Positions 47,330 to 48,847 of a stretch of DNA of 64,000 nt are shown here, piece after piece. The stretch covers positions 5,567-69,566 of the forward strand of contig JADHVC010000001.1 of the NCBI GenBank assembly GCA_016784175.1. The letters are read 5' to 3'. Within the stretch, counting starts at the first letter, position 1. Every line of letters begins with the position of its first letter. The DNA is from Patescibacteria group bacterium. Lineage in GTDB: Bacteria > Patescibacteriota > Patescibacteriia > Patescibacteriales > BS150m-G62. The position numbers were made by a program, and so were the translations under genes. Below the pieces are notes generated by a model. That model saw nothing but the letters and a program-made list of their open reading frames with translations. It had not been told where the DNA came from and searched no databases.

Positions 47330-48059
47330 CTACCGGTCTTCTAAATTGACTGGATCCGACTTATCATATTCAAGTAATGCTAGAACAATTCCCCTAGCAG
47401 CGTCATTTACATTTAAAAATTCCCTACTAGCGTTACCAGTTCCCCAAACTTCTAACTTCTTATCCTCTTTTTTTGCCTCATAGACTTTTTTAATCAAAGC
47501 CGGAATCACATGAGAGCTAGTAGGATCAAAATTATCCCCTATACCGTACAAATTTACGGGCATTAGGTAAACGGAATTAAAGCCATATTGCTCACGATAT
47601 GCTTGAGACTGCACTAGCATCATTTTTTTTCGCCAAGCCATAAGGTACATTTGTAGGCTCAGGATAACCCAACCAAAGATCATCCTCTTTAAATGGGACT
47701 TCGGTATAGTTGGGATAAGCGCAAATCGTCCCCAAGGCAACAAATTTTTGAACGCCTGCTAATCTTACAGCCTCCATTATCTGAATCCCCATTACAGCAT
47801 TATCATAAAACAGCGAAGCCGGATTCATACGATTATATCCTATCCCTCCAACGCTGGCAAATTGATAAATCACTAAATCTATACTATTCACAACCTTTTT
47901 GCAATTCTCCCAAATCCTCGAGTCACAATCTTTTAACCTAGGAATCAGTATATTCTCCTCATCAACGCCACGATTCAATAACTCACTCACCACAAATTTC
48001 CCTAAAAAACCAGCACCCCCAGTTACTAATATTCTTTTGTTATTTAACTTCATTGTCAT
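47330..48059 (-). pseudogene. fcl: GDP-L-fucose synthase (Fcl/WcaG)-like NAD-dependent epimerase, frameshifted and C-terminally truncated
   Basis: The N-terminal half ([13 protein letters not shown]...YGLAKK) and the continuation ([34 protein letters not shown]) lie in different frames. They are joined by an A8 run on the coding strand (T8 at 47623-47630). The ORF ends at ..PVNLEDR, roughly 90-100 aa short of full-length Fcl, 50 bp before the next gene. Confidence 0.6.
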
Positions 48060-48186
48060 AATCGGATTTCGCTATCATCTCGACCAATTGGTCAAATTTT
48101 ATTTTTGGCTCCCAGCCTAAAATATTTTTAGCCTTTGAATAATCACCCAACACCACGTTCACTTTAATAGTTAAAAAGAATACCAT
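48040..48186 (-). pseudogene. C-terminal remnant (about 40 codons) of an NDP-sugar 4,6-dehydratase (Gmd-like)
   Basis: The translation ..[37 protein letters not shown] matches the conserved C-terminus of GDP-mannose 4,6-dehydratase. It overlaps the fcl start. No upstream body is present. Confidence 0.5.
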
Positions 48187-48205
48187 TTTTCATATTTTTA
48201 ATAAA

Positions 48206-48847
48206 TTAAGAATTACTGATAGCCTCCTGAGCATTAACTATAAAATCATTAGCAATCATACGATTATTCCACAATTTTATTATATTCATAACTAACTTAT
48301 TTTTATCCCCAATATCCACCAATAATCCATTCACATCGTTGGTAATAAATTTCGAATAAGCATCAATATTTGAAGCAATTATTGGCACACCCACCTTCAT
48401 CGCTTGTCTTAATCTATCCTGATTAAACCCCAAAGAATCATTTAGTACAAGCATATCGCTTGCCTTCATTAACTTATATAATTCTACATTATCAAGATTA
48501 GTAGAAAAAAATATCGATTTTCCCAACTCAAGTTCTTTAATTTTTGCCTTAATGCTCTCCTCTTGGTCCAAGCTACCAACAATAATTAATTTAAATCCTG
48601 GATTAGCTTGAATCAACTCTGGCATTATGCCGATAAGAACATCGCAATGTTTTTCTTTATTTGAATTAGTTATCGCAAGCACAATATCACCTTTTAAGCC
48701 TAATTCAATTTTAAGCGTACTTTTTCCTTGTTTTATTTCTGGAATATTAGCAATATGTATTACCTTATCGATAATACTTGCCTCATTTTTCCAATAACCT
48801 AGAACTTTATTTAAAATATTTTTCATATAAACTAACAATTGATTCAA
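48206..48847 (-). pseudogene. glycosyltransferase family 1 (GT4-like) C-terminal domain only, a probable truncated remnant
   Basis: The 213 aa contain the GT-B C-terminal nucleotide-binding half (..LIIVGS...E..LK..SD..V.......G..EA...G.P.I.S). No N-terminal acceptor domain is present. Confidence 0.45.

What the first reader, a model, noticed from the sequence alone, without database searches (positions are those of the whole stretch)
47330..48847. Decaying GDP-fucose branch at the end of the glycan locus: fcl frameshifted in an A8 tract and truncated, gmd reduced to a 40-codon remnant, GT1 reduced to its C-terminal half
The fcl N- and C-halves are in different frames joined at a poly-A(8) run (47623-47630 on the plus strand as T8). 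A7 would restore YGLAKKMMLVQ. Its ORF stops about 90-100 aa early, 50 bp before wzm. Upstream, only the conserved C-terminal tail of a Gmd-like dehydratase survives (48043-48165), overlapping the fcl start. Upstream of that, a GT1 gene lacks its N-terminal domain. This indicates ongoing loss or remodelling of a fucosylation module in a surface-glycan locus. The homopolymer frameshift could alternatively be phase variation or a sequencing artefact.
Basis: seen in the sequence. Interest (0 to 1): 0.55.

Follow-up and report, generated by a model that had tools for sequence, protein, structure and literature searches.

The report
Dead GDP-fucose genes in glycan locus
An uncultured Patescibacteria bacterium carries the broken leftovers of its two GDP-fucose genes, plus half of a glycosyltransferase gene, between a still-conserved promoter and an intact polysaccharide-export operon; this is ordinary gene decay after a surface-sugar locus was remodelled.

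Summary
On the minus strand, 48907-47281 holds a conserved promoter, a GT4 C-terminal-half ORF, the last 46 codons of gmd, and an fcl pseudogene. An intact wzm-wzt operon follows.

The fcl gene is more damaged than reported:
- a +1 frameshift at the A8 run (47623-47630);
- a second +1 near 47340;
- a -1 near 47294;
- loss of the last ~52 codons plus the spacer before wzm;
- 12 substitutions at positions at least 95% conserved in 120 intact homologues, which average 1.4.

Six assemblies, counting the window, are 100% identical here and all carry A8. That argues against an assembly artefact and against visible phase variation.

A related organism from the same study has intact gmd (346 aa) and fcl (311 aa). 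They sit at the same place, between gyrA and wzm, behind the same promoter 17-mer.

The refinement concerns the GT4 half. It occupies the place of gmd codons 1-~299. It has no relative above 35% identity and has lost its catalytic motifs. It is more likely a fragment that replaced the gmd 5' part than a resident gene decaying in place.

This is an ordinary event and of low interest.

The parts
48878..48907 (-). Operon promoter: TTGATT, 18-nt spacer, TATAAT. Includes most of the conserved 17-mer ATAGTATAATTGTGAGA (48887-48871).
   Evidence: The promoter scan scores it 10 of 12. The 17-mer and part of the downstream leader are identical in relative L002, upstream of its intact gmd.
48206..48826 (-). 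206-codon ORF (213 codons from the TTG at 48847) encoding only the C-terminal Rossmann domain of a GT4/GT1-type glycosyltransferase. The catalytic motifs are eroded. NCBI names it 'glycosyltransferase' (MBL7057751.1).
   Evidence: Pfam PF00534 at 81.7 bits, profile positions 14-171 of 172. NCBIfam GT4 models match only from about position 150-170 onward. Homologues carry a median of 163 extra N-terminal residues. The ORF deviates at 17 of 28 columns that are at least 80% conserved, including both Glu of EX7E. The best relative is 35% identical.
48181..48205 (-). Short spacer that contains the junction between the GT fragment (its own stop TAA is at 48208-48206) and the gmd remnant.
   Evidence: Homology to L002 gmd resumes at about 48180-48165.
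48040..48180 (-). gmd remnant: the last 46 codons plus the stop. It overlaps the fcl start codon by 20 nt.
   Evidence: tblastn with L002 Gmd residues 300-345 gives 61% identity, E = 5e-14. TIGR01472 positions 299-340 of 342. PF16363 positions 302-331 of 332.
47625..48059 (-). fcl pseudogene, segment A (codons 1-145, frame 1). The GxxGxxG motif and the Y-x3-K motif are retained.
   Evidence: 72% identical to L002 Fcl residues 1-145. Alignment.
47623..47630 (-). A8 homopolymer: a +1 insertion in the conserved AKKM codons (GCG AAA AAA ATG expected).
   Evidence: All five other assemblies carry A8. The intact relative reads GCA AAA AAA ATG.
47342..47629 (-). fcl pseudogene, segment B (codons 144-239, frame 2).
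   Evidence: 77% identical to L002 Fcl residues 144-239.
47282..47341 (-). fcl pseudogene, segments C and D (about codons 240-259). A second frameshift (+1) lies near 47341-47335 and a third (-1) near 47294. Resulting stops are TAG at 47332-47330 and TAG at 47295-47293.
   Evidence: Three-frame translation shows [14 protein letters not shown] in the third frame. The DNA alignment to L002 shows the single-base indels.
47278..47284 (-). Deletion or recombination junction. fcl codons ~260-311 and the ~145-bp fcl-wzm spacer are absent. The wzm ATG (47280-47278) follows the last fcl-derived bases directly.
   Evidence: Alignment with L002 has a gap of about 300 bp.
46465..47280 (-). Intact wzm (ABC-2 permease). 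wzt follows at 46431-45658, then the rest of the glycan operon down to 40591.
   Evidence: Pfam matches. Homologues of 271-275 aa align over their full length.

Best explanation
The stretch 48826-47281 (minus strand) is non-functional relic DNA. The lineage once carried a gmd-fcl pair, the GDP-mannose to GDP-L-fucose pathway, as the first genes of a Wzm/Wzt polysaccharide operon transcribed divergently from gyrA.

In this organism the distal biosynthetic part of the operon is now a different set of genes: FdtA-type isomerase, DegT aminotransferase, methyltransferase and GT2 enzymes. The fucose branch is no longer used and has been destroyed in several steps.
- The end of the 5' leader and gmd codons 1-~299 were replaced by about 650 bp holding the 3' half of a foreign GT4 gene.
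- fcl took a +1 slip in the A7 run of its AKKM codons, two more single-base indels, and many substitutions at otherwise invariant residues.
- The last ~52 fcl codons and the spacer before wzm were lost, probably at the junction where the wzm-wzt-downstream block was exchanged.

The promoter is kept. The relic therefore now serves, at most, as a 1.6-kb transcribed leader for wzm-wzt.

What is shown: the lesions, their fixation in several assemblies, and the intact syntenic state in a relative. What is inferred: the order of events, one replacement event versus two deletions for the GT fragment, cassette exchange as the cause of the 3' truncation, and read-through transcription.
For: Family identity.

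Three frameshifts and the 3' deletion.

Relaxed selection: 13 deviations (12 substitutions plus the frameshift site) at 128 columns that are at least 95% conserved. The 120 intact homologues average 1.36, with a maximum of 8.

Intact state in relative L002: MT-gyrA-orf99 on one strand, then gmd(346)-fcl(311)-wzm-wzt on the other. gyrA is 77% identical and Fcl 72-77%. The promoter 17-mer is the same.

No intact allele is known. The closest intact Fcl among 5.8 billion proteins is 73% identical.

The same sequence, with A8, is present in ENA ERZ24794644, ERZ24794645 and ERZ24794647 and in Logan ERR13319542 and ERR13319543.

No other gmd or fcl copy lies in the 64-kb window.

Mosaicism: L002 is the closest known relative for gyrA and Fcl. 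For Wzm it is only about 15th. A different contig, L085, is 77% (Wzm) and 70.5% (Wzt) identical, against 64% and 59% for L002. Genes downstream of wzt differ completely between the window and L002.

Precedent: gene remnants at recombination junctions and inactivated O-antigen genes in Yersinia (PMC5399914).
Against: Only one syntenic relative is known, and it is distant (gyrA 77%). The ancestral state and the order of events are therefore reconstructed from a single comparison.

None of 80 other Patescibacteria species representatives has gmd, fcl or wzm next to gyrA.

It cannot be decided which of the two lineages exchanged wzm-wzt.

The GT fragment has an uninterrupted 206-codon ORF directly behind the promoter. 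A product with some function is therefore not excluded.

Only 64 kb of the genome was examined, so a second gmd-fcl copy elsewhere cannot be ruled out.

No expression data exist.
Confidence: 0.85

Rival explanations
1. Sequencing or assembly error at the homopolymer: the real genome has A7 and a working fcl.
For: Homopolymer runs of 8 are classic error sites. The repaired protein is 73% identical to an intact enzyme and keeps the GxxGxxG, Y-x3-K and SHVIPAL motifs.
Against: Five other assemblies (three ENA SPAdes-style assemblies and two Logan run assemblies) are 100% identical across the region and all carry A8. Two further frameshifts, the missing 52 C-terminal codons, 12 hits at conserved residues and the absence of Gmd remain even with A7.
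Confidence: 0.02
2. Phase variation or rescue by slippage: the A8 tract is a contingency switch, or RNA polymerase or the ribosome slips on it to give full-length Fcl part of the time.
For: The A run lies inside the ORF at the frame junction. Poly(A) tracts of this length are known slippage sites (established knowledge of contingency loci and of transcriptional slippage in AT-rich endosymbionts).
Against: No length variation appears among the six assemblies, counting the window. A -1 ribosomal shift runs straight into TGA; only +1 or -2 restores the frame (sequence). Any rescued product would stop again at 47332 and lack the C-terminal 70 aa. The substrate-supplying Gmd is gone. The intact relative also has an in-frame A8 run at the same place, so the run follows from the AKKM codons in an AT-rich genome and is not a specialised switch.
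Confidence: 0.03
3. Decay in place with two deletions: a full-length GT4 gene once sat between the promoter and gmd. One deletion removed its 5' half and a second removed the 5' 300 codons of gmd.
For: The GT fragment has its natural 3' end and stop codon, as expected of a resident gene. Glycan loci often begin with GT genes.
Against: The only syntenic relative has no GT gene there; its leader runs directly into gmd. This model needs an insertion plus two deletions, against one replacement. No relative of the GT above 35% identity exists in any sampled genome. The evidence is thin either way.
Confidence: 0.25
4. The 206-aa GT4 C-domain ORF is a functional, expressed protein, for example a non-catalytic sugar-nucleotide-binding or scaffolding subunit, rather than a relic.
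For: It has an uninterrupted ORF in a 32% GC genome. It sits directly behind the conserved promoter with an ATG at the junction. The structural framework of the domain is recognisable (PF00534 at 81.7 bits). NCBI annotates it as a protein.
Against: All three nucleotide-sugar and catalytic motifs are replaced: GRL..KG, EX7E and GG..E. The acceptor-binding N domain is absent and no partner half-gene is nearby. No orthologues exist, so no sign of conservation. Zero indels in 621 bp is not significantly fewer than three in 777 bp of fcl (Poisson P about 0.09, my own calculation).
Confidence: 0.1

Closest known systems
Cryptic or inactivated O-antigen gene cluster of Yersinia pestis, and gene remnants at module junctions in Y. 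pseudotuberculosis O-antigen clusters (review PMC5399914)
   Same: Both involve a polysaccharide gene cluster in which nucleotide-sugar pathway genes carry inactivating mutations. In both, partial genes mark the junctions of exchanged modules. The Yersinia M modules also use a gmd-fcl pair.
   Different: In Y. pestis the mutations abolish the O antigen altogether. Here the exporter (wzm-wzt) and a different biosynthetic set are intact, so only one sugar branch is lost. The host is an uncultured Patescibacteria bacterium, presumably without an outer membrane (my own knowledge, not tested here), so the product is not an LPS O antigen.
Intact gmd-fcl-wzm-wzt operon of the related Patescibacteria contig ERZ24794645 NODE_16313 (L002)
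   Same: Same chromosomal position, divergent from gyrA and a small membrane ORF. Same promoter 17-mer, same gmd/fcl overlap and same gene order.
   Different: L002 has full-length Gmd (346 aa) and Fcl (311 aa) and no GT fragment. Its wzm-wzt are only 64% and 59% identical to the window's. Its downstream genes are unrelated to those of the window.
Homopolymer contingency loci in surface-glycan genes (for example phase-variable glycosyltransferases of Haemophilus, Neisseria and Campylobacter; my own knowledge)
   Same: A poly-A run inside a glycan-pathway ORF sets the reading frame.
   Different: The tract length does not vary among six assemblies. The gene is also dead for other reasons, and its pathway partner is missing.

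Membership tests
GDP-L-fucose synthase (Fcl/WcaG; NCBIfam NF047922) | Best-scoring family for the conceptually repaired translation. | tested here: met
   NF047922 gives E = 3.9e-61 at 207 bits; the next family (GalE) gives 57 bits. The repaired protein is 66-73% identical to proteins that sources name GDP-L-fucose synthase.
GDP-L-fucose synthase (Fcl/WcaG; NCBIfam NF047922) | Score at or above the curated cut-off, with coverage of the whole 308-position profile in one reading frame. | tested here: not met
   207 bits against a cut-off of 500. Only profile positions 2-246 are matched, and only after three frame corrections.
GDP-L-fucose synthase (Fcl/WcaG; NCBIfam NF047922) | SDR cofactor motif GxxGxxG, the catalytic Ser/Thr and Y-x3-K, and the SHVIPAL histidine. 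| tested here: met
   [22 protein letters not shown] and SSHVIPAL are present. However, IHLAA has become IYQFA, GP.DNF has become GIGDNF and EETNAP has become EPTNVP.
GDP-L-fucose synthase (Fcl/WcaG; NCBIfam NF047922) | C-terminal segment carrying the conserved PDGQP.R block. | tested here: not met
   It is absent. 16 columns that are at least 95% conserved lie beyond the truncation.
GDP-mannose 4,6-dehydratase (Gmd; TIGR01472) | Full-length enzyme with an N-terminal Rossmann fold and a catalytic centre. | tested here: not met
   Only profile positions 299-340 of 342 match (25.8 bits against a cut-off of 415). These correspond to residues 300-345 of the relative's 346-aa Gmd.
GT4 / Glycos_transf_1 retaining GT-B glycosyltransferases | C-terminal donor-binding Rossmann domain. 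| tested here: met
   PF00534 at 81.7 bits against a cut-off of 26.4, profile positions 14-171 of 172.
GT4 / Glycos_transf_1 retaining GT-B glycosyltransferases | N-terminal acceptor-binding Rossmann domain. | tested here: not met
   The ORF begins at the equivalent of about residue 163-177 of homologues of about 380 aa. The upstream 380 bp hold the promoter and a divergent 86-aa ORF.
GT4 / Glycos_transf_1 retaining GT-B glycosyltransferases | EX7E motif and the GRL..KG and GG..E donor-binding motifs. | tested here: not met
   In the mafft alignment the first EX7E Glu aligns with Gly (a hand alignment on the GF dipeptide gives Leu). The second Glu is Gln, GG is DA, the Glu of GG..E is Lys, and GRL is TNS.
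ABC-transporter-dependent (Wzm/Wzt) polysaccharide locus | Adjacent ABC-2 permease and ATPase genes inside a cluster of sugar-modifying and GT genes. | tested here: met
   PF01061 for wzm and PF00005 for wzt, followed by GT2, methyltransferase, FdtA, DegT and GT2 genes.
Phase-variable contingency gene | Tract length varies within or between populations, and the ORF is otherwise intact. | tested here: not met
   A8 is present in all six assemblies, counting the window. Additional frameshifts and truncation are present. Read-level heterogeneity cannot be tested with these tools.

The most novel reading that the evidence does not exclude
The relic block is not inert. The GT4 C-domain ORF, placed directly behind the conserved promoter, may be a retained non-catalytic protein (a pseudo-glycosyltransferase). 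Alternatively, the 1.6-kb pseudogene leader may be kept because it controls expression of wzm-wzt. Either would be unusual retention of dead-gene material in a streamlined Patescibacteria genome.
Probability: 0.08. Interest if true: 0.35.

Novelty: new member of a known kind. Interest (0 to 1): 0.18.

Why it matters
The finding matters mainly for annotation and metabolic reconstruction. This genome should not be credited with GDP-fucose synthesis. The 'glycosyltransferase' MBL7057751.1 is a motif-less half-enzyme.

It also gives a clean, dated-by-lesions example of surface-glycan loci being remodelled by module exchange in Patescibacteria. The relics sit at the junctions, as in enterobacterial O-antigen loci. 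A sister population with the intact fucose module co-occurs in the same samples. That fits diversifying selection on cell-surface sugars, but it shows no new mechanism.

Tried and rejected
1. Other strains with an intact copy. A search of 5.8 billion proteins with the repaired Fcl found nothing above 73% identity.

2. A donor for the GT fragment. The word-indexed search found only the ORF itself. A full HMMER scan of 1.8 billion representatives found nothing above 35% identity. There is no paralogue in the window and none in 84 related loci.

3. A family of stand-alone half-length GT4 proteins. About ten short hits exist. The one inspected (P0129) sits after a 1.5-kb gene-less gap, so it looks like another truncated call, and it still keeps the motifs.

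4. Synteny in 80 GTDB species representatives anchored on gyrA. None has gmd, fcl or wzm nearby.

5. An alternative genetic code. The stops that interrupt fcl are TGA, TAG and TAG. Reading UGA as Gly only extends frame 1 by five codons to a TAA.

6. A -1 programmed frameshift on A AAA AAA. It leads straight into TGA (sequence).

7. A structured RNA in the region. Rfam finds nothing between 47 and 49 kb.

8. A replication origin in the gyrA-side intergenic. The GC-skew minimum is there, but DnaA boxes are not enriched.

9. Microhomology at the fcl/wzm deletion junction. The relative's fcl codons 260-265 and wzm codons 2-7 resemble each other. This is too weak to claim.

10. Statistical asymmetry in lesions. 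Zero indels in the GT ORF against three in fcl is not significant (P about 0.09).

Full report
**What is there**

The window is AT-rich (about 32% GC). The closest GyrA sequences among GTDB species representatives are 70-75% identical, in Candidatus Falkowbacteria and other Patescibacteria MAGs. NCBI names one ORF of the region 'glycosyltransferase [Patescibacteria group bacterium]' (MBL7057751.1).

A polysaccharide operon runs on the minus strand from about 48900 to 40591. In order it holds:
- a promoter;
- a GT4 C-domain ORF (48826-48206);
- a 48-codon ORF (48186-48040);
- two overlapping SDR ORFs (48059-47592 and 47743-47330);
- wzm (47280-46465) and wzt (46431-45658);
- a GT2-like gene, a methyltransferase and a 322-aa unknown;
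- an FdtA-type isomerase, a DegT aminotransferase and a GT2.

gyrA lies on the other strand at 49228, preceded by an 86-aa ORF.

**Checking the observation**

The A8 run is at 47623-47630. The two SDR ORFs match Pfam Epimerase positions 1-146 and 146-232, so they are halves of one gene in different frames. With one A removed, the translation reads YGLAKKMMLVQ. It scores best against NCBIfam GDP-L-fucose synthase (E = 3.9e-61; the next family scores 57 bits). It is 66-73% identical to about 311-aa enzymes that sources name GDP-L-fucose synthase.

The 48-codon ORF matches only the last 42 positions of the gmd equivalog TIGR01472 and PF16363 positions 302-331 of 332. The GT ORF matches only the C-terminal GT-B domain. 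All four elements of the finding are therefore real.

**More damage than reported**

The three-frame translation shows that the fcl reading frame is lost again after VNL. The third frame reads [14 protein letters not shown], matching the G.GREI.I..L block of intact enzymes.

Aligned to the relative's DNA, the window has:
- a one-base insertion near 47341-47335;
- a one-base deletion near 47294;
- a gap of about 300 bp that removes fcl codons ~260-311 and the whole fcl-wzm spacer.

As a result the wzm ATG follows fcl-derived bases directly.

In an alignment with the 120 best intact homologues, the window sequence deviates at 13 of 128 columns that are at least 95% conserved. That is 12 substitutions plus the frameshift site. 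The homologues average 1.36, with a maximum of 8. Examples are IHLAA to IYQFA, GP.DNF to GIGDNF and EETNAP to EPTNVP. This is the signature of relaxed selection, not of a single recent slip.

**Artefact and phase variation**

The exact ORF products occur in other public assemblies. Five contigs are 100% identical to the window over 1761 bp (930 bp for the shortest). They come from ENA ERZ24794644, ERZ24794645 and ERZ24794647 and from Logan ERR13319542 and ERR13319543. All carry A8 and the same second-frameshift context. Over 12.4 kb, one of them differs from the window by a single mismatch and no gaps.

There is thus no consensus-level tract variation. An assembler-specific homopolymer error is unlikely. 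Read-level heterogeneity cannot be tested with these tools.

The intact relative reads GCA AAA AAA ATG at this place, an in-frame A8 run. The tract is therefore a by-product of the conserved AKKM codons in an AT-rich genome and a natural slippage hot spot. A -1 ribosomal shift would hit TGA at once. Only +1 or -2 restores the frame, and the product would stop again at 47332.

**The intact state exists in a relative**

The closest intact Fcl (P0001, 73%) lies on ERZ24794645 NODE_16313 (L002). Its gene order is methyltransferase, gyrA and a 99-aa ORF on one strand, then gmd (346 aa), fcl (311 aa), wzm and wzt on the other.

Identities to the window are:

| Gene | Identity to window |
|---|---|
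| Methyltransferase | 67.5% |
| GyrA | 77% |
| Small ORF | 33% |
| Gmd tail | 61% |
| Fcl | 72-77% |
| Wzm | 64% |
| Wzt | 59% |

The promoter is shared. A 17-mer, ATAGTATAATTGTGAGA, contains the TATAAT. It is identical in both, and leader similarity continues for about 40 nt. The promoter scan finds TTGATT-18-TATAAT at 48907-48878. The gmd/fcl overlap is also conserved, at 20 nt against 23 nt. L002 has no GT gene between the leader and gmd.

None of 80 other Patescibacteria species representatives has gmd, fcl or wzm beside gyrA. This arrangement therefore defines a narrow clade. L002 and the window organism co-occur in the same sample.

**The GT half-gene**

The GT half-gene occupies the place where L002 has the leader end and gmd codons 1-~299. 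It has its own stop (48208-48206), followed by about 25-40 bp before gmd homology resumes.

Full-length homologues carry a median of 163 more N-terminal residues. In 1.8 billion representative proteins, the best match other than itself is 35% identical. The matches fall at about residues 170-370 of proteins of at least 375 aa. The word-indexed search of 5.8 billion proteins found only the ORF itself.

The ORF deviates at 17 of 28 columns that are at least 80% conserved; homologues average 2.6. GRL..KG is replaced by TNS..KH, both glutamates of EX7E are lost, and GG..E is replaced by DA..K. The few short homologues keep these motifs. The one inspected looks like a truncated gene call.

I infer that the fragment is enzymatically dead. 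Most parsimoniously, it arrived in one illegitimate replacement event. A model of insertion followed by two deletions cannot be excluded with a single relative. The ORF is uninterrupted. However, zero indels in 621 bp against three in 777 bp of fcl is not significant (Poisson P about 0.09, my own calculation).

**Why the fucose branch died (inference)**

Genes distal to wzt differ completely between the window and L002. The window has a GT2-like gene, a methyltransferase, an unknown, FdtA, DegT and GT2. L002 has a nucleotidyltransferase, an epimerase, an aminotransferase, a TPP enzyme and others.

L002 is the nearest known relative for GyrA and Fcl. For Wzm, at least 14 proteins are closer than L002's. 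A JGI contig (L085) is 77% (Wzm) and 70.5% (Wzt) identical, against 64% and 59% for L002. This incongruence places a recombination breakpoint between fcl and wzm in one of the two lineages. The fcl 3' truncation that abuts the wzm ATG is the obvious candidate in the window.

Gene remnants at module junctions, and inactivated sugar-pathway genes, are well documented in Yersinia O-antigen clusters (PMC5399914).

**How it works now**

The block makes no Gmd and no Fcl. It is most likely just transcribed from the retained promoter as a 1.6-kb leader of wzm-wzt. This is inferred; no terminator-like site lies between 48870 and 47280. No Rfam family matches the region.

**Verdict**

The GT half is probably a replacement fragment rather than a resident gene. 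The phenomenon is ordinary: a new example of a known kind. Interest is 0.18.

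Noticed in passing
window 52827-53288: tRNA-Arg(tcg) at 52938-53012 is flanked by near-perfect tandem repeats: 37 nt x 2.9 (52827-52933, 100% matches) and 117 nt x 2.3 (53017-53288, 98%). The 117-nt unit contains most of the 37-nt unit. The sister assembly L001 maps here with shifted offsets, so copy number differs or was collapsed.
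   Followed up: partly
window 56684-56773 (-): Rfam match to DUF3800-V RNA (RF02964) at 46.1 bits, above the gathering score of 37.4.
   Followed up: no
window ~48850-50000: The cumulative GC-skew minimum and a switch of gene orientation coincide with the divergent intergenic between the glycan operon and gyrA. That would suit a replication origin, but the DnaA-box consensus is not enriched in the window.
   Followed up: partly
L002 (ERZ24794645 NODE_16313) and L090 (ERZ24794645 NODE_9087): The same metagenome sample contains both the window organism, with decayed gmd-fcl, and the related population with intact gmd-fcl and a different distal glycan gene set.
   Followed up: partly
window 48930-49190 (+): An 86-aa ORF with a hydrophobic stretch and no Pfam match lies just upstream of gyrA. 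It is conserved in position, and weakly in sequence (33%, E = 3e-8), with a 99-aa ORF in L002.
   Followed up: no
L085 (JGI 3300036760 Ga0373620_0048692) 2367-5828: The contig with the closest Wzm (77%) has gmd directly upstream of wzm with no fcl. A second gmd-like gene follows wzt. This is another arrangement of the same building blocks.
   Followed up: no
L002 695-2293: A 532-aa large serine recombinase (Resolvase/Recombinase domains) lies about 0.9 kb beyond the methyltransferase gene that follows gyrA in the relative. It has no counterpart in the window.
   Followed up: no
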